From the NCBI GenBank assembly GCA_963706595.1, contig OY970166.1:4000001-4064000 (forward strand): 64,000 bases of DNA. Direction: 5' to 3'. The DNA is from an uncultured cyanobacterium. GTDB lineage: Bacteria; Cyanobacteriota; Cyanobacteriia; Cyanobacteriales; Nostocaceae. The notes under the pieces are model-generated. The model made no database searches, was not told the origin of the DNA, and saw only the letters and a program-made list of their open reading frames with translations. The position numbers and the translations under genes are program-made. Positions 40,630 through 45,810 of the stretch are shown piece after piece (the stretch's first letter is position 1; each line of letters begins with the position of its first letter).

Positions 40630-43095
40630 ATGTCAGAAGTGCCTACTCAGTGTCAAAATTTATCAGAGCAAGTTGAGTCTATATTACAATTTTTACAGCA
40701 AGAACCATCTTTACGTTCTCAAGATATTACATCTGTACAAACTTCTCTAGGAAAAGTGATTTCTCCAAAGTTTGAAATTGTATTTGCAGGTGCATTTAGT
40801 GCCGGGAAGTCGATGCTAATTAATGCCCTCCTAGAACGGGAGTTGTTATATAGTGCCGAAGGACACGCTACAGGTACGGAATGCAAAATTGAGTATGCGG
40901 AACTAAATAATGAACGGGTGGTTTTAACGTTTTTAAGTGAAGTTGAAATTCGGGAACAAGCTAGTTTTCTGTGTCAACATTTGGGATTTCAAACAGCCGT
41001 TAATATTAATCAAGTTGAAGTAATTAGCCTCTTGCGTCAAGGTTGTGAAACGATTATTCAGCACGAAGGTGGGGAAAGTAAATCGGAACGTGCAAAACAA
41101 GCGAAGGCTTTAATATTGCTGCTGGATGGGTATGAGGCAAACCGTCAACATATTCATACTATGAATAATGCTACATACTCGATGGAGCAATTTAACTTTT
41201 CTAATCTCAAAGAAGCTGCTGGATATGCGCGGCGTGGGAGTAATAGCGCTGTGTTAAAAAGAATTGAATATTACTGTAACCATCCCCTTTTGTCAGATGG
41301 TAATGTGATCATCGACACGCCAGGAATTGATGCACCAGTAGAGAAGGATGCACAGTTAACTTACGACAAGATTCAACATCCAGATACATCGGCGGTGGTG
41401 TGTGTGTTAAAACCTGCTTCTGGTGGTGATATGACGAAGGAAGAAACGGAACTTTTAGAAAAAATGCGAAACAATGCGGGAATACGCGATCGCATCTTCT
41501 ACACCTTCAATCGCATTGACGAAACTTGGTATAATACCCAGTTAAGGCAGCGTTTAGATGATTTAATTAGTCAACAGTTTCGAGATGCGAGTCGGGTTTA
41601 TAAAACCAGTGGTTTACTCGGATTTTACGGTAGTCAGATTAAACGCACTACTGAAATAGATAGATTTGGGTTAGATTCTGTTTTTACAGAGAGTGTTAAA
41701 AGTCTCAATGGCACAGAAGAAACACCGCAATTTATTAATGAGTTTAACCGCTATTGTGTTAATTCTGGCAAACTTTCACATAGACAGTTTCCCATTTCCA
41801 TAAGCAATGCTCAAACTGCCAATCAAAATTATGTGAGAATTTTAAATGAGCATGGAACGCCTTTAATTAATCAGCTAATTCAAGATAGTGGAATTGAGGA
41901 ATTTCGCACAGCTATTACTAAATATTTAGTAGAAGAAAAGCGTCCACAGCTTTTCAAAAATCTGGCTGATGATTTGGAAGATATTTGCATTAAATTAAAA
42001 AAACATTATCAGGGTGAACAAAGGAATTTAGATAGTCAACCGCGAGAAATTGAGGCGATGAAGGCGCAAGAGTTACAACGCCTGAATCAGCAGCTACAGC
42101 AAGTTGGTAAAGATTTTAGCCAGCATATTGCAGAAGAAGTCAACCAAATAATTAATAATTCCTGTGATGCTTTTGAATCAGATTTTCGACAACTACAATC
42201 ACGGATGATTCGGCGTTTAGATGAATTGCTAGATACCTTTTCTGTGGCTGATGCTTATCGACGTTCTACTATTAGTCATCCCCGAAATGCAACTGCACCT
42301 TTACTAGCTATTTTAGTCGAGGCATTTTATTATTTAGCAAATCAATTAGAAGATATCTTGATAGATTCTTCTCAACAATTAGTTGCTAATTTGTTTCAGC
42401 GATTAATGGATAAAATTCGCAAGTCAGAATACTATCGTCAATTATATCGGTTGTTAGGTAATGATGGCGGCATTGAAAAAGAGGTAAAAATTTTAGAAAA
42501 ATCAGTATCTTTAGCGTTAGTAAGTGCAGCTAGTATAGAATGCGATCGCTTCGTCAGAGAAAGTCCTAGATTTTATGATGAAGGCACGTTTTCTATATAT
42601 CAATTTCGCCAAACTTTGCTGCAAACTTCCCAAGGTTACGATTCTGAAAGCATAGTAGAAGCTGAACCAGCAATTAGACAATTGTTAAAGTTAGATTTTG
42701 AACCAAAAGTTTCTCAAACAATCCGTAAAACCTTCCGCCAAACTATCAGCCAAATCCTCAAAAGTCAGTTATTACCTATGGCGGAACAGCAAGCAGATGA
42801 TATTTTGCAGCAGTACCCCCAAGCGCGGGCTTATTTAGAGCAAAGTCTGCAACAAGAAGCTGAGGAAAAAATTCTGAATAATCGCCGCTTATTGAGTGTT
42901 GTTGAACAAAAAATTGCGGCTTATAATTCCGCCGTTTCGCAAATCAATAATTGCTTACAGTCTATGCAGTTATATGATCATTTATTGCCTGAAATTGGCA
43001 ACGAAGATGTTCAACCACTAGTAACTGATGCAGAAGTTGTTGAATTTGCGAATAAAGATACTTTTATTGCTGATGGTTTAGTCAGCAATATATAG
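40630..43095 (+). CDS. Bacterial dynamin-like GTPase (SynDLP-like)
   Basis: G1 GAFSAGKS, G3 DTPG, G4 NRID, long helical stalk, HPRN motif, Cys near both termini. Confidence 0.88.
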   Translation: MSEVPTQCQNLSEQVESILQFLQQEPSLRSQDITSVQTSLGKVISPKFEIVFAGAFSAGKSMLINALLERELLYSAEGHATGTECKIEYAELNNERVVLTFLSEVEIREQASFLCQHLGFQTAVNINQVEVISLLRQGCETIIQHEGGESKSERAKQAKALILLLDGYEANRQHIHTMNNATYSMEQFNFSNLKEAAGYARRGSNSAVLKRIEYYCNHPLLSDGNVIIDTPGIDAPVEKDAQLTYDKIQHPDTSAVVCVLKPASGGDMTKEETELLEKMRNNAGIRDRIFYTFNRIDETWYNTQLRQRLDDLISQQFRDASRVYKTSGLLGFYGSQIKRTTEIDRFGLDSVFTESVKSLNGTEETPQFINEFNRYCVNSGKLSHRQFPISISNAQTANQNYVRILNEHGTPLINQLIQDSGIEEFRTAITKYLVEEKRPQLFKNLADDLEDICIKLKKHYQGEQRNLDSQPREIEAMKAQELQRLNQQLQQVGKDFSQHIAEEVNQIINNSCDAFESDFRQLQSRMIRRLDELLDTFSVADAYRRSTISHPRNATAPLLAILVEAFYYLANQLEDILIDSSQQLVANLFQRLMDKIRKSEYYRQLYRLLGNDGGIEKEVKILEKSVSLALVSAASIECDRFVRESPRFYDEGTFSIYQFRQTLLQTSQGYDSESIVEAEPAIRQLLKLDFEPKVSQTIRKTFRQTISQILKSQLLPMAEQQADDILQQYPQARAYLEQSLQQEAEEKILNNRRLLSVVEQKIAAYNSAVSQINNCLQSMQLYDHLLPEIGNEDVQPLVTDAEVVEFANKDTFIADGLVSNI

Positions 43096-43178: not shown

Positions 43179-43218
43179 AAGCTTCTCGGTTCCGCCACAT
43201 AATCAATCAGGCTAATTG

Positions 43219-43464
43219 ATGAATAAAACGCCGCGAATTCGTATCCCGCCAGAAGTCAGACAATATGTATTTCAAAGAGATAAATACCAATGCCAAAGCT
43301 GCGGTAAAACCAAGTTAGAAACTGACTTGACAATCGATCATATCATCCCCCTAGCCCGTGGCGGTCAAAACGATATGAGCAATTTACACACCCTCTGCTT
43401 GACTTGCAACCAGCAAAAAACCGATAAACTTGACCCTCGATTCCGGCGACATTTTCAGAATTAG
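43219..43464 (+). CDS. Small stand-alone Zn-binding HNH endonuclease
   Basis: RD...CQSCG...IDHIIPLARGG...NL..LCLTCN..K. Confidence 0.9.
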   Translation: MNKTPRIRIPPEVRQYVFQRDKYQCQSCGKTKLETDLTIDHIIPLARGGQNDMSNLHTLCLTCNQQKTDKLDPRFRRHFQN

Positions 43465-43541
43465 GAATTTTCCAAAAATAAATTATGCCTTTTTAGTTAA
43501 TTGTGTTACATTAAGTAGCGAGATGTAATACATAGGCTTTG

Positions 43542-43629
43542 TTATGGTTTGGGTTCTATATACCCGACTGGCGCGCCAACCACTGGATTGACCGTGTAGT
43601 ACAAAGTAACTTGTAACGTCACACCATAA
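43542..43629 (+). ncRNA. Putative ~90-nt multibranch ncRNA (RNA A)
   Basis: Closing stem TTATGGT/ACCATAA enclosing hairpins TTGGGT/ACCCGA, TGGC/GCCA and TGAC/GTCA. Confidence 0.5.
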
Positions 43630-43633
43630 ACCC

Positions 43634-43704
43634 CAAAAGTTAGCTCACTGGTAGAGCAATCGAACAAAATCGATTTGTTACAGGTTCGATTCCTGTACTT
43701 TTTA
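43634..43704 (+). ncRNA. tRNA-like RNA with non-canonical 6-nt anticodon loop
   Basis: AAAAGT/ACTTTT acceptor, T8A9, GCTC-ACTGGTA-GAGC D arm, ATCGA-ACAAAA-TCGAT anticodon arm, ACAGG-TTCGATT-CCTGT T arm. Confidence 0.85.
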
Positions 43705-43748
43705 CCCACCCTGAAAAGGTGAAACACACTAACCTGAAAAGGTTACTA

Positions 43749-44030
43749 GAAACTCTGTAATGTAGGCTTACTAGCGCTCATCACTTGTGGTGTTCGGTAG
43801 TAGCAGTAAAGAAGCCAGCGCGAATGTTCTCTCCCTGACTTGAGTCTGTCCCTTCGGTTTTCCTATCCGGAGTTCTGGAACTGGCTAACCGAACGGCATA
43901 TTTGAGCGTTGTTGTCTGTTTCTAGATTACCCTTGGGTAGTTTAGGAATAAGTAGCAGCCTTCTTAATCCAGTTTTGGATGTGAAATTTGCCCGCAACTG
44001 AACTGTAAAAACCTACATTTGCGGAGTTTT
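43749..44030 (+). ncRNA. Putative ~280-nt multibranch structured ncRNA (RNA B)
   Basis: 18-bp end-to-end helix plus at least five internal helices; many pairs are G-U on the + strand. Confidence 0.65.
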
Positions 44031-44103
44031 AAAATTTAGTGTAGTATGTGTAGTATTGACTCAAAAGTTATCTCCTAATTAAGTTATTGGCACTAATGCC
44101 TGA

Positions 44104-44210
44104 TATAGCGGTTATCAGTTAAGTGAGATACAAGAACCCCACCCCCAACCCCCTCCGGTGCAAGCGAGGAGGAGGCTATGATCTACTTCATTGAAGTGGA
44201 TACCGCCATA
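44104..44210. mobile_element. MITE-like element (TATAGCGGT...ACCGCCATA); related inverted copy at 51056-51143
   Basis: Imperfect inverted ends; shared core aagaaccccacccc...gcaagcgagga...gctatgat. Confidence 0.65.
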
Positions 44211-44223
44211 ACTCATTTTACCT

Positions 44224-45810
44224 ATGTTTTTATTAAACTTTTTTCGTCGGCTAAAACTGCCGAAATTATCTATGAAAATTTCTTTGTGGAAAACTTTTTA
44301 TATCAAGCCTAACGAAATTGGGATTTTGTATCAACGCAGTGATTTTCATAAAATCTTACAACCTGGTACTTACAACTATTTTGGTCCGCACTGGAATGTG
44401 AAAACCTATGATCTCAATCAACCAGAGTCTCAAATTGAGAACTTGGAATTGTTGGTGCGAAATCATAGTGCAGAGTTACAGCCACATCTCTTAGTAGTTA
44501 AAACAGCATTTAATGAAGCGGCTTTAGTTCGCTGTGGTCAAAATTGGGTCAGTGTTGCGCCTAATGAATTACGAGCTTTTTGGCGTGGTTTTATTGAGGT
44601 AGAATCCCATATTTTCAACTTAGATGAAAACTTGGAATTACCTGCGGAATTTGTGCGGCAACTACGGGTAAATACCTTAAATGGCATCAAAAAATTCCAA
44701 ATTTTTGAGTACGAAATTGGTTTGCTGTACGTGCAGAATAACTTTGTGCGCCCCCTAGTAACCGGAGAGTACGCTTTTTGGGCTGTAGATAGAGATGTTT
44801 CAGTGCGGACTCTCAGCCGGATGATTCCAAATCCAGAGTTTCCCTTAGAAGATATCTTGATTTCACAACATCCCGATTTTGTCGCAGCTTATTGCAAAAC
44901 TGTCGAATTACAAAATCAACAAGTTGCGATCGCCCGCTATCAAGGTAAAGTTATTAGTATCCTCGCCCCATGTAGTCGCAAGCTGTTTTGGCGAGATGTA
45001 GAGGTAGAAGTCATTGACATCAGCACCGATGCTAAATTGTCATCTGATTTAGTTGCTGAGTTGGTTGTGGGTTTACCTGAAGCGGTAATTTTGAGCCTCA
45101 ATAGTTTACATATTGCCTACATACCCCCGCAGTATGTGGGACTGTTGTACATCAATCAAGAGTTTCAAACACAACTCCAGTCCGGGAATCATGCTTGGTG
45201 GGTGTTTGGGCGTTCTGTAAACACAGAAATCTTTGACCTCCGCCAACAAACGATGGAAGTATCCGGCCAAGATATTTTATCCAAAGATAAAGTGCCTTTG
45301 CGCCTCAACTTAACTGCTGGCTACCGCATCACCGACCCACTCACAGCCAAAAACCGTTTATCGGATTTAACTAGCTACTTATACAAAGAGTTGCAATTTG
45401 CTTTACGTGGTGCTGTAGGTGAAAAAACCCTAGATACCTTACTAGAAGACAAAGGAGCCATTGATAGCAGTATTTTTGATTACATTCACCAAAAAACCGC
45501 CGACTATGGCATAGAAATAGATTCGGTTGGAGTCAAAGATATCATTCTCCCTGGTGAGATTAAAACGATTTTAGGGAAAGTAGTAGAAGCAGAAAAAATC
45601 GCCCAAGCTAACGTCATCCGTCGTCGTGAAGAAACTGCTGCTACCCGCAGTATGTTAAATACTGCCAAAGTAATGGAAGATAACCCCGTAGCATTGCGTT
45701 TAAAGGAGTTAGAAGTATTAGAACGAATTGCTGAGAAAATTGAGAAAATCCAAGTCAATGGAAGTTTAGATAGTATTTTGACCGACTTAGTGCGGATGAA
45801 TCGCGATTAA
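44224..45810 (+). CDS. SPFH/Band-7 (slipin-like) protein with five N-terminal beta repeats and C-terminal coiled coil
   Basis: DLRQQ.MEVSGQDILSKDKV.LR.N, GVKDIILPGE, AEK.AQAN.I.RREETAATRS.LNTAK motifs. Confidence 0.9.
   Translation: MFLLNFFRRLKLPKLSMKISLWKTFYIKPNEIGILYQRSDFHKILQPGTYNYFGPHWNVKTYDLNQPESQIENLELLVRNHSAELQPHLLVVKTAFNEAALVRCGQNWVSVAPNELRAFWRGFIEVESHIFNLDENLELPAEFVRQLRVNTLNGIKKFQIFEYEIGLLYVQNNFVRPLVTGEYAFWAVDRDVSVRTLSRMIPNPEFPLEDILISQHPDFVAAYCKTVELQNQQVAIARYQGKVISILAPCSRKLFWRDVEVEVIDISTDAKLSSDLVAELVVGLPEAVILSLNSLHIAYIPPQYVGLLYINQEFQTQLQSGNHAWWVFGRSVNTEIFDLRQQTMEVSGQDILSKDKVPLRLNLTAGYRITDPLTAKNRLSDLTSYLYKELQFALRGAVGEKTLDTLLEDKGAIDSSIFDYIHQKTADYGIEIDSVGVKDIILPGEIKTILGKVVEAEKIAQANVIRRREETAATRSMLNTAKVMEDNPVALRLKELEVLERIAEKIEKIQVNGSLDSILTDLVRMNRD

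What the first reader, a model, noticed from the sequence alone, without database searches (positions are those of the whole stretch)
43749..44030. ~280-nt multibranch RNA with strand-specific G-U pairing
Helices found by eye: 43749-43766 with 44012-44030 (18 bp, one bulge, 3 G-U); 43772-43780 with 43903-43911 (9 bp, 2 G-U); 43853-43859 with 43887-43893, capped by TCCGGA/TCTGGA; 43917-43950, a fully paired 16-bp hairpin with 4 G-U around a C(UU)G loop; ATCCA/TGGAT at 43967-43980; GACT/AGTC at 43837-43846. Departures from perfect palindromes are G-U wobbles on the + strand and would be A-C mismatches on the - strand. That is the signature of RNA-level selection rather than a DNA inverted repeat. 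I do not recognise it as RNase P RNA, tmRNA, SRP, 6S or an intron.
Basis: seen in the sequence. Interest (0 to 1): 0.85.

Follow-up and report, generated by a model that had tools for sequence, protein, structure and literature searches.

The report
New structured RNA beside slipin gene
This is a real, expressed, roughly 280-base folded RNA of filamentous cyanobacteria that is made together with tRNA look-alikes, always travels with a slipin (membrane-scaffold family) gene, appears wired into the cell's translation-stress response, and matches no described RNA family.

Summary
The RNA is real. On the + strand 43750-44030 folds far better than shuffles (z -5.9; - strand -3.0). It is single-copy in its genome. 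Across 39 homologues a 10-helix structure is 92% paired (35-41% when partners are slid), and 63 of 91 pairs show double-sided changes. No Rfam family matches.

It is the 3' module of a larger unit: a TrcR-type promoter box, a conserved structured leader of about 100 nt, 1-3 tRNA-like genes with hypervariable or degenerate anticodon loops, two small hairpins, then this RNA. Metatranscriptome contigs cover about 43534-44022 and not the flanking ORFs.

A tandem TGTAGTAT box (the published TrcR operator) and a triple-SPFH slipin gene follow directly. RNA and slipin co-occur strictly: 17 of 17 slipin genomes carry the RNA, and 40 of 61 relatives have neither (3 more keep only gene fragments).

In Anabaena 7120 an intergenic forward-strand transcript at the equivalent place is co-induced with rtcB, the tRNA L-array and the slipin operon.

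Best reading: a stress-induced trans-acting RNA, released by tRNA-type processing, that works with the slipin protein. That function is inferred, not shown. In four genomes a retron-type RT sits beside the unit.

The parts
43512..43531 (+). Promoter region of the RNA unit, with a TrcR-type box (TGTAATAC at 43524-43531; -10 candidate TAATAC)
   Evidence: The box is found by pattern. The equivalent position is conserved in 38 loci as GTAGTAAT/GTAATAC-type repeats. Metatranscriptome contigs begin at 43534 and 43547. TrcR half-sites are taken from PMC10272220. Binding is inferred.
43523..43620 (+). Conserved structured leader domain: a closing helix, hairpin 43546-54/43562-69, and hairpin 43570-81/43585-600
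   Evidence: Alignment A8 of 38 loci. The structure is 92.6% paired against 28-35% when slid, 16 of 29 pairs show double-sided changes, and 0 of 500 shuffles reach it.
43634..43704 (+). tRNA-like element (class B) with a 6-nt anticodon loop; probably not a decoding tRNA in this genome
   Evidence: Rfam tRNA scores 48.3 bits. ARAGORN does not call it. Orthologues have the same body but different anticodons.
43707..43745 (+). Spacer with two small hairpins (43707-43721 and 43730-43745)
   Evidence: Read from the sequence. Equivalent hairpins are conserved in the multi-locus alignment.
43750..44030 (+). The structured RNA (about 281 nt). P1 43751-66/44012-28; P2 43770-84/43787-801; P3-P4 43803-23/43988-44006; P5 43830-43/43968-81; P6 43844-57/43889-901; P7-P8 43861-69/43876-84; P9 43904-12/43955-63; P10 43921-31/43936-46
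   Evidence: Fold z-scores. Alignment A6 and its structure. Pair counts. Coordinates. Covariance model R1.
44040..44056 (+). Tandem TGTAGTAT boxes: the predicted TrcR operator and -10 (TAGTAT) of the slipin gene promoter
   Evidence: Pattern hits at 44040-47 and 44049-56. An exact TGTARTAY lies 27-41 nt after the model hit in 25 of 43 RNA copies. The same 8-mer is the footprinted TrcR site and -10 box of the trn operon (PMC10272220).
44224..45810 (+). Slipin/SPFH gene (ORF 528 aa; the likely start is Met17 at 44272), with two truncated SPFH-like repeats before a complete SPFH domain and coiled coil
   Evidence: Pfam Band_7, 3.1e-31. The repeats are read from the translation. PDB stomatin 1e-21. 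Fold matches to stomatin, prohibitin and HflK/C at Z 15-17. It lies downstream of 36 of 43 RNA copies and co-occurs with the RNA.
43216..43464 (+). 82-aa HNH endonuclease gene upstream of the unit (only in this genus)
   Evidence: Pfam HNH_5, 4.9e-23. Close orthologues occur only in L001-L005. HNH genes flank cyanobacterial tRNA L-arrays and belong to the TrcR regulon (PMC8421152 sections 22 and 26; PMC10272220 Table 1).

Best explanation
Position 43750-44030 (+) encodes a genuine structured non-coding RNA of a family not yet described.

It is transcribed as the last module of a unit of about 500 nt. The unit runs: TrcR-type promoter, structured leader, tRNA-like element(s), two small hairpins, then this RNA.

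The tRNA-like modules most likely serve as built-in RNase P / RNase Z processing signals that release the leader and the RNA of about 280 nt as separate stable molecules.

The unit's promoter, and the promoter of the slipin (SPFH) gene that follows immediately, both carry TrcR-type boxes. Both should therefore be switched on when translation is impaired.

The RNA then acts in trans together with the slipin protein, probably as a ribonucleoprotein whose invariant internal loops are the binding surface.

Shown here: the structure, conservation, strand, single copy, expression as a unit separate from the flanking ORFs, synteny, and strict co-occurrence with the slipin gene.

Inferred: TrcR control, tRNA-type processing, and physical or functional partnership with the slipin protein.
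For: Structure:
- z = -5.92 on the + strand.
- 39 homologues give 10 helices that are 92.0% paired against 35-41% when slid. 63 of 91 pairs show double-sided changes and 0 of 500 shuffles reach this.

Not a repeat: there is one copy in the 5.57-Mb genome.

Distribution:
- 18 of 151 genomes sampled from the order.
- 18 of 61 relatives.
- 8 of 151 genomes in a phylum-wide sample, all within two families of the same order.

Unit architecture:
- 38 of 43 unique copies have 1-3 same-strand tRNA-like genes called by ARAGORN within 700 nt upstream.
- A conserved leader is found in 38 distinct loci, and its structure is supported by covariation.

Expression:
- RNA-library contigs from 4 runs cover 43547-43992, 43547-43835 plus 43842-43992, 43688-43952, and 43534-44022 (depth 137).
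- No contig laid reaches the HNH ORF or the slipin ORF.

Link to slipin:
- The gene lies downstream of 36 of 43 copies.
- Among 61 relatives, all 17 genomes with a full-length gene have the RNA. The one further RNA genome has the RNA on a 1.1-kb contig. 40 have neither. Three more have gene fragments only and no RNA.

Stress link:
- The TGTAGTAT tandem box is identical to the footprinted TrcR site of the trn operon.
- This genome has a trcR orthologue with the exact published operator.
- In G124 the order is RNA, box, YdeI, slipin. This is the same order as alr0739-alr0740, which rise 71- and 42-fold in a trcR deletion mutant.
- The probe alr0738_igFwd (intergenic, forward strand) is the top transcript co-regulated with rtcB, the L-array, all8564 and alr0739/40 (PMC9938897, Supplementary Table 2).
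Against: - No experiment or computation here shows RNA-protein contact.
- Contigs cannot show RNA ends, processing or abundance, and DNA carry-over in the RNA libraries is not excluded.
- Only 25 of 43 copies have an exact TGTARTAY box downstream. A genome-wide scan for tandem boxes found 11, no more than a rough shuffle expectation of about 18.
- Co-occurrence could reflect inheritance of one locus rather than function.
- In G020 the RNA and the slipin gene (which carries an in-frame TAA) are 790 kb apart.
- The 5' strand of the leader's closing helix overlaps the presumed -10 box, so either the start site or that helix is misjudged.
Confidence: 0.5

Rival explanations
1. It is a cis-acting element of the slipin operon. 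The folded RNA would act as a leader, attenuator or insulator whose terminal helix and U-run stop or pass transcription from the upstream tRNA-like promoter into the slipin gene.
For: It lies immediately upstream of the slipin gene on the same strand in 36 of 43 copies. In the window, P1 is followed by UUUU. No contig continues past 44022.
Against: A separate promoter-type box lies between the RNA and the gene. The U-run is not conserved: several homologues have A-runs after P1. Ten conserved helices and invariant internal loops are far more than a terminator needs. Upstream copies in tandem loci are followed by another unit or by an RT gene, not by slipin.
Confidence: 0.13
2. It is a retron-type or otherwise RT-associated non-coding RNA, acting as template or primer for a reverse transcriptase. 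Most genomes would then retain it after losing the RT.
For: In 4 genomes a 315-375-aa RT lies directly beside a unit: L052, L065, G055 (L023/L188) and G113 (L169). PADLOC scores it as RT_XIII at about 500 bits, E about 1e-150. In L065 the RT ORF starts about 14 nt after an RNA copy. Like retron RNAs, this RNA is closed by a long duplex of its 5' and 3' ends.
Against: The closest RT-like hit in this genome is 38% identical and about 1.77 Mb from the locus. Across 61 relatives, close RT homologues (55-65% identity) and the RNA do not co-occur: 8 genomes have the RT only, 12 have the RNA only, and 5 have both, with the two adjacent in only one of these. Of 12 RT_XIII loci, 11 have no R1 hit, no unit motif, no adjacent tRNA-like and no slipin gene. 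The fold pairs its 5' and 3' halves along its whole length, instead of forming separate msr hairpins and an msd hairpin, and no conserved unpaired G follows P1.
Confidence: 0.07
3. It is a decaying remnant of a horizontally acquired tRNA L-array or other mobile cassette, conserved only by recent common descent and without a function of its own.
For: Distribution is patchy, 4 of 10 species in the same genus. HNH and tRNA-like neighbours resemble L-array surroundings (PMC8421152 section 22). The anticodon loops are degenerate.
Against: Pairing is maintained by compensatory changes across several families at 65-94% identity. Many loop nucleotides are invariant. It is expressed at high depth in environmental RNA libraries. 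It is gained and lost strictly together with an intact slipin gene.
Confidence: 0.05
4. It is not an RNA feature at all, but DNA-level inverted repeats or protein-binding sites.
For: The flanks carry repeated operator-like boxes.
Against: There are 15 G-U pairs on the + strand. Fold and model scores are strand-asymmetric. The changes are compensatory rather than sequence-conserving. RNA-library contigs cover the region.
Confidence: 0.02

Closest known systems
OLE RNA with its membrane protein partner OapA (Firmicutes); comparison made from recall
   Same: Both are large, ornate, highly conserved ncRNAs of unknown chemistry. Each is encoded next to, and phylogenetically tied to, a partner protein gene and is linked to stress tolerance.
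   Different: There is no sequence or Rfam relationship. This RNA is about 280 nt, not about 600 nt. The partner is a slipin/SPFH protein. The RNA is fused to tRNA-like modules. Binding is not shown here.
YrlA / bacterial Y RNA with Rsr (Ro) in the rtcBA stress operon
   Same: Both are ncRNAs with a tRNA-like module and a stem closed by the 5' and 3' ends. Both are co-regulated with the RNA ligase RtcB in a translation/RNA-damage response (the RtcB-TrcR link is from PMC10272220).
   Different: The Rfam YrlA model scores only 23.5 bits against a gathering score of 69, and only across two adjacent tRNA-likes in L155. No Ro/TROVE gene was seen next to the loci examined. Here the tRNA-like element is a separate upstream module.
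Cyanobacterial tRNA L-array (trn operon) of the TrcR regulon
   Same: Both have tandem tRNA(-like) genes with an HNH neighbour, a TGTAGTAT operator overlapping the -10 box, and induction by translation inhibitors in Anabaena 7120 (PMC8421152; PMC10272220).
   Different: Only 1-3 tRNA-likes are present, many with abnormal loops. They are followed by a 280-nt non-tRNA RNA and preceded by a structured leader. The locus is tied to a slipin gene. The passages and sections I read of the two L-array/TrcR papers do not mention such an RNA.
Retron ncRNA (msr-msd), especially type XIII systems
   Same: Both have a terminal duplex of the 5' and 3' ends. In four genomes a type XIII-like RT gene lies next to a unit.
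   Different: See the membership test. There is no RT at this locus, and no co-occurrence or shared motifs with typical type XIII loci. The domain layout is different.
Vault RNA with major vault protein; comparison partly from recall
   Same: A small structured RNA would be paired with a cage-forming protein whose shoulder domain is SPFH-like. Foldseek aligns the whole slipin model to MVP at E 2.6e-13 over 584 columns.
   Different: The N-terminal half folded alone has no significant match: best E 0.04, MVP 0.15, from a model with pLDDT 59. The C-terminal SPFH domain matches stomatin and prohibitin better, Z 15-17 against 10-12 for MVP. Pfam finds no Vault or MVP domains. This is an analogy only.
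tRNA-like processing signals such as mascRNA at the MALAT1 3' end; from recall
   Same: An embedded tRNA-like fold recruits RNase P or RNase Z to define the ends of a neighbouring long RNA.
   Different: That is a eukaryotic system and is unrelated in sequence. Processing has not been shown here.

Membership tests
Any Rfam 15 family | Match to a covariance model at or above its gathering score | tested here: not met
   The whole window at gathering thresholds gives 3 hits, all tRNA. For 43400-44250 at E up to 10, only the tRNA-like at 43634-43704 passes. In L155, YrlA scores 23.5 bits against 69.
tRNA (for the upstream element 43634-43704) | Cloverleaf with a 7-nt anticodon loop and a readable anticodon | tested here: not met
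   The cloverleaf scores 48.3 bits. The loop has 6 nt, however, and ARAGORN makes no call. Orthologues have 7-nt loops with differing anticodons.
Retron ncRNA (msr-msd) | Contiguous retron RT gene | tested here: not met
   No RT lies at the window locus. The closest RT-like hit in this genome is 38% identical, at C1:2270598. An RT lies beside the unit in only 4 genomes.
Retron ncRNA (msr-msd) | Terminal a1/a2 duplex, separate msr stem-loops and msd hairpin, and a conserved unpaired branching G after the duplex | tested here: inconclusive
   A terminal duplex is present (P1). The 5' and 3' halves pair with each other through P3 to P5, and no invariant unpaired G follows P1. msDNA cannot be tested here.
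Retron type XIII system | Its own ncRNA and its WH-SWIM / ARM partner genes next to the RT (PMC7736814 passages) | tested here: not met
   Of 12 RT_XIII loci, 11 lack any R1 hit or unit motif. I did not scan for the partner genes.
TrcR regulon (Anabaena 7120) | TGTAGTAT-type operator overlapping the -10 box | tested here: met
   Boxes lie at 44040-47 and 44049-56, with TGTAATAC at 43524-31. A trcR orthologue with the exact published operator is present in this genome.
TrcR regulon (Anabaena 7120) | TrcR binding, and derepression in a trcR mutant or under translation inhibitors | not testable with these tools
   There is only indirect support: the alr0738_igFwd probe is co-regulated with regulon members in PCC 7120, and alr0739/alr0740 are derepressed in the trcR deletion mutant.
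MITE / dispersed repeat | Many genomic copies | tested here: not met
   One match in the own genome. Short-word BLAST finds only chance 13-17-mers.
Type V-K CAST tracrRNA | Lies on the strand opposite to the neighbouring tRNA, next to a CRISPR array and cas12k (PMC9938897 section 6 passages) | tested here: not met
   It is on the same strand as the tRNA-like element. The flanking ORFs are HNH, a dynamin-like GTPase and slipin.
T-box-like tRNA sensor | A specifier triplet complementary to the partner tRNA's anticodon | tested here: not met
   The best alignment column matches the codon in 6 of 30 sequences.
Intrinsic terminator | Stem followed by a conserved U-run | tested here: inconclusive
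   The window has UUUU after P1. Several homologues have A-rich tails. The simple scan does not flag it.

The most novel reading that the evidence does not exclude
The locus encodes a stress-induced ribonucleoprotein system that has not been described before. One TrcR-controlled precursor would yield a structured leader RNA, tRNA mimics and the 280-nt RNA. The 280-nt RNA would load onto or organise an oligomeric triple-SPFH slipin assembly, a bacterial counterpart in logic to vault or OLE particles. The tRNA mimics would evolve fast at the anticodon triplet alone because they act as decoys or sensors in a conflict with anticodon-directed nucleases or other translation-targeting agents. The occasional capture of a retron-type RT beside the unit would mark the module as part of the defence and stress gene pool.
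Probability: 0.2. Interest if true: 0.9.

Novelty: categorically new. Interest (0 to 1): 0.8.

Why it matters
Large, intricately folded bacterial RNAs with no known function are rare, and they have repeatedly led to new biochemistry.

This one comes with unusually concrete handles:
- a defined regulator (TrcR) and inducing condition (ribosome-targeting antibiotics);
- a single candidate protein partner (a soluble-looking triple-SPFH slipin) that is gained and lost with it;
- built-in tRNA-like modules whose anticodons change even between species of one genus;
- a genetically tractable relative (Anabaena 7120) in which a transcript at the equivalent place is already seen to be induced.

It would add an RNA component to the cyanobacterial translational-stress regulon. 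It would also give SPFH-family proteins, whose functions are often obscure, a testable RNA connection.

Tried and rejected
- **MITE or repeat.** Rejected: there is a single copy.
- **Known RNA family.** Nothing in Rfam.
- **Plasmid collection.** BLAST found no match.
- **Pattern scan of genome contigs.** The pattern was too loose. Only 6 cyanobacterial loci were confirmed by the model. L030, L079 and L101 were not.
- **Full-length covariance model.** I modelled 180 central and 3' positions instead.
- **T-box-like specifier** complementary to the variable anticodon. Rejected.
- **rRNA mimicry or antisense targets** in the own genome. Only chance-level short matches; a cluster near 0.30 Mb is not an rRNA operon.
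- **Genome-wide enrichment of tandem TrcR-type boxes.** Not enriched: 11 found against a rough expectation of about 18. The ORFs beside the other sites were not informative.
- **Consensus promoter and terminator scan.** Uninformative.
- **Vault-like N-terminal repeats in the slipin protein.** The N-terminal model is poor (pLDDT 59) and has no significant fold match. The true bacterial MVP homologues in the literature are different proteins (bioRxiv 10.1101/872010, part 1 read).
- **RT_XIII as obligate partner.** Rejected by distribution and by typical RT loci.
- **CAST tracrRNA remnant.** Rejected on strand and neighbours.
- **Earlier notes of this scan.** Nothing found.
- **Absence of contig cover over the flanking ORFs**. 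This is noted but is not evidence that they are silent.
Full report
**The observation**

Folded as RNA, the + strand gives -99.2 kcal/mol against a mean of -72.3 for dinucleotide shuffles. That is z = -5.92, and 0 of 200 shuffles fold as well. The - strand gives -75.1 kcal/mol, z = -2.96, with 1 of 200.

Rfam 15 finds only three tRNA matches in the whole window at gathering thresholds. At E up to 10 in 43400-44250 it finds nothing else of note.

One of those tRNA matches lies 45 nt upstream on the same strand (43634-43704, 48.3 bits). Its anticodon loop has six bases, and ARAGORN does not call it.

The element occurs once in the 5.57-Mb genome, so it is not a MITE.

**Homologues and structure**

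BLAST over 61 related genomes found matches at 65-94% identity. I aligned 17 loci.

A full-length covariance model could not be calibrated within the time cap. I therefore built a 180-position model of the central and 3' part from 15 sequences, leaving out L008 and L014, which carry insertions of more than 80 nt.

The model scores the window at 198 bits on the + strand and a 19-bit fragment on the - strand. It finds the RNA in:
- 18 of 151 genomes sampled from the order;
- 18 of 61 relatives;
- 8 of 151 genomes sampled from the phylum, all in two families of the same order.

Named hosts, from a pattern scan confirmed by the model, are several Nostoc species, Nostoc linckia NIES-25, a Stigonema MAG and Floridaenema aerugineum.

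From 44 matches I kept 43 unique copies. I aligned 39 of them at full length. The four dropped were L008 and L014 (large insertions), L163 (irregular ends) and L105:4966 (degenerate 5' end).

The RNAalifold consensus has 91 pairs in 10 helices. 92.0% of cells are paired, against 35-41% when partners are slid by 1-3 columns. 63 pairs show changes on both sides. None of 500 column shuffles reaches any of the five measures.

In window coordinates the helices are:
- P1: 43751-66 with 44012-28
- P2: 43770-84 with 43787-801
- P3-P4: 43803-23 with 43988-44006
- P5: 43830-43 with 43968-81
- P6: 43844-57 with 43889-901
- P7-P8: 43861-69 with 43876-84
- P9: 43904-12 with 43955-63
- P10: 43921-31 with 43936-46

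The window sequence forms 71 Watson-Crick and 15 G-U pairs out of 89.

The other three, tested together, are no better than shuffles: 71.4% against 71.0% paired, with 128 of 500 shuffles as high.

P2 is missing in several homologues, so it is a variable arm.

**The RNA is the last module of a larger unit**

In 38 of 43 copies ARAGORN calls one to three tRNA-like genes on the same strand within 700 nt upstream. They fall into recurrent classes.

The class next to the RNA keeps its body, U33 and A37-A38 almost invariant, and often has an encoded CCA. Its anticodon triplet is the most variable stretch of the molecule. Among 30 copies with a three-base anticodon, CAT occurs 8 times, AAT 6 times and twelve others 1-2 times each.

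Within the window's own genus the five orthologues carry a 6-nt loop, AGA, TCT, TCC and CAT.

The upstream class often has malformed loops.

No triplet in the RNA tracks the anticodon: the best column matches in 6 of 30 sequences.

Upstream of the tRNA-likes, a conserved leader of about 100 nt is present in 38 distinct loci, including each copy of tandem duplications. Its fold is 92.6% paired against 28-35% when slid, and 16 of 29 pairs show double-sided changes.

The 5' strand of its closing helix overlaps a box of the GTAGTAAT/GTAATAC type. That pair covaries, AU 14 against GC 13. This may mean RNA pairing, or two DNA operators changing together. I could not decide which.

**Expression**

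Eleven RNA-library runs from eight studies hold 10-31% of the sampled words of 43450-44450.

Laying four of them gave these contigs:
- 43547-43992 (X1; 446 nt, 3 differences);
- 43547-43835 and 43842-43992 (X2);
- 43688-43952 (X3; no differences);
- 43534-44022 (X11; a relative with 26 differences, depth 137). This one runs straight into what I recognise, from recall, as Illumina adapter.

A 550-nt contig of depth 788 in X1 matches only the most conserved parts. It is presumably the homologue from another organism.

No contig laid reaches the HNH ORF (43216-43464) or the slipin ORF. Pieces at 44100-44210 have foreign flanks and belong to a dispersed repeat.

Contigs cannot give ends, strand or abundance, and DNA carry-over is not excluded. 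With that caveat, the data fit a transcript of about 490 nt made of leader, tRNA-like element and RNA.

**Neighbours**

A 528-aa ORF with an SPFH/Band 7 domain lies downstream of the RNA in 36 of 43 copies. The seven exceptions are upstream members of tandem pairs, contig ends, and the isolated copy in G020.

The protein is of the slipin kind. Before the complete SPFH domain and coiled coil it has two truncated SPFH-like repeats. Its likely start is Met17.

Among 61 relatives:
- All 17 genomes with a full-length gene have the RNA.
- The one further RNA genome (G027) has the RNA on a 1.1-kb contig.
- Three genomes have only gene fragments and no RNA.
- 40 have neither.
- Within the window's genus, 4 of 10 other species have both and 6 have neither.
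- In G020 the two are 790 kb apart, and the gene carries an in-frame TAA.

Between RNA and gene, the window has two TGTAGTAT boxes (44040-47 and 44049-56). An exact TGTARTAY lies 27-41 nt after the model hit in 25 of 43 copies.

**Link to the translational-stress regulon**

TGTAGTAT is the footprinted TrcR site that overlaps the -10 box (TAGTAT) of the trn tRNA L-array promoter in Anabaena 7120 (PMC10272220, passages and sections 8, 10, 13).

Tandem 9-nt repeats over the -10 box and start site confer induction by chloramphenicol (PMC8421152, section 22). An HNH gene sits upstream of most L-arrays (PMC8421152, sections 22 and 26).

The window's genome has the exact published trcR promoter motif, followed by a ribbon-helix-helix ORF.

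In Table 1 of the TrcR paper, alr0739 and alr0740 (the latter a slipin family protein) rise 71- and 42-fold in the trcR deletion mutant.

In G124 the order is RNA, box, YdeI/OmdA ORF, slipin. This matches alr0739 (YdeI) followed by alr0740.

In Supplementary Table 2 of PMC9938897, the probe alr0738_igFwd (intergenic, forward strand) shows the largest change (log2 -2.41). It changes together with rtcB, the L-array, all8564, alr0739, alr0740 and asr0855. The authors attribute this to erythromycin in the complemented strain.

I could not test whether that transcript is homologous to this RNA.

A genome-wide count of tandem boxes is not above a rough chance expectation. The regulon assignment therefore rests on the identity and position of the boxes, not on enrichment.

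**The slipin protein**

An AlphaFold model from 14 sequences (pLDDT 70.5) matches stomatin, prohibitin, HflK/C, flotillin and erlin over its C-terminal half. Foldseek gives E down to 8.5e-14 and VIA-align gives Z 15-17.

Foldseek also aligns the whole length to the major vault protein (E 2.6e-13, 584 columns). VIA-align gives MVP Z 10-12 at rmsd 7-12 Å. The N-terminal half folded alone is poor (pLDDT 59) and has no significant match.

I treat the vault likeness as an analogy only.

**Reverse transcriptases**

In four genomes an RT of 315-375 aa lies directly beside a unit:
- unit-RT-unit-slipin in L052 and L065;
- RT-unit-(group II-type RT)-unit-slipin in G055;
- RT-unit at a contig end in G113.

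PADLOC scores them as RT_XIII at about 500 bits. They lack roughly the first hundred profile positions. NCBIfam places them with retron RTs below the family cut-offs.

Close homologues of 55-65% identity, with open frames mostly 480-585 aa, occur in 13 of 61 relatives, plus two partial copies. They do not track the RNA: 8 genomes have the RT only, 12 the RNA only, and 5 both, with the two adjacent only in G055.

Eleven of twelve such loci carry no model hit, no unit motif, no adjacent tRNA-like and no slipin gene.

Type XIII retrons are described with their own distinct ncRNA and with WH-SWIM and ARM partner proteins (PMC7736814, passages).

I therefore read the RT as an occasional neighbour, not a defining part. 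It remains a lead.

**What it most likely is**

This is a new family of structured ncRNA, the 3' module of a composite unit that includes tRNA-like elements. The unit is probably controlled by TrcR and induced under translational stress. The RNA acts in trans with the slipin protein that it always accompanies.

My odds for the separate claims:
- real structured, expressed RNA: about 0.95;
- member of the TrcR regulon: about 0.6;
- release by tRNA-type processing: about 0.5;
- functional partner of the slipin protein: about 0.4.

The rivals are a cis-acting leader or terminator, an RT-associated RNA, a decaying L-array remnant, and a DNA-level feature. They are set out with their tests in the fields above.

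**Prior description**

I searched the paper library with alr0739, with alr0740, with a tRNA-like/cyanobacteria/non-coding RNA/Nostoc/SPFH combination, and with retron/type XIII/ncRNA. I found no description of this RNA.

The only trace is the unnamed microarray probe.

The library lacks most subscription journals. I also did not read the supplements of the two L-array/TrcR papers.

Noticed in passing
L052:3441-4568(-), L065:3311-4417(+), L023:2141-3187(-), L169:1021-1968(-): Short retron-type reverse transcriptases sit directly beside RNA units in four genomes. PADLOC scores them as RT_XIII at about 500 bits, and they lack about 100 N-terminal profile positions. In L052 and L065 the RT lies between two complete units, upstream of the slipin gene.
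   Followed up: partly
window 43634-43704 and orthologues in L002-L005: The anticodon of the tRNA-like element differs in all five species of one genus: a 6-nt loop, AGA, TCT, TCC and CAT. The rest of the element is nearly identical. Across families, the triplet is the most variable part.
   Followed up: partly
window 43523-43620: A second conserved structured RNA domain, the leader of about 100 nt, precedes the tRNA-like genes in 38 loci. Its closing helix overlaps the presumed operator and -10 box.
   Followed up: partly
window 44100-44210 (core about 44137-44178): A G/C-rich segment lies in the long 5' region of the slipin gene. RNA-library contigs with unrelated flanks match it, so it is a dispersed repeat inserted between promoter and start codon.
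   Followed up: no
window 43216-43464: An 82-aa free-standing HNH endonuclease. Its best NCBIfam partial match is the HNH domain of IscB (62.5 bits, below the cut-off of 175). It is present upstream of the unit only in this genus.
   Followed up: partly
G000:C1:1789809 (- strand), outside the window: An exact copy of the published 18-nt trcR promoter motif is followed by a small ribbon-helix-helix ORF. The genome therefore has the TrcR repressor.
   Followed up: partly
L023:1-648(-) in G055: A group II intron-type RT (RVT_N plus RVT_1) lies between the two RNA units. This suggests an intron insertion into the tandem locus.
   Followed up: no
G020:C1:4660901 and C1:5449487: This is the only genome seen in which the RNA and the slipin gene are far apart (790 kb). 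There the slipin frame carries a TAA, and the RNA copy has no downstream TGTAGTAT box.
   Followed up: no
window 40630-43095: An 821-aa bacterial dynamin-like GTPase lies upstream of the HNH gene. It is syntenic only within the genus.
   Followed up: no
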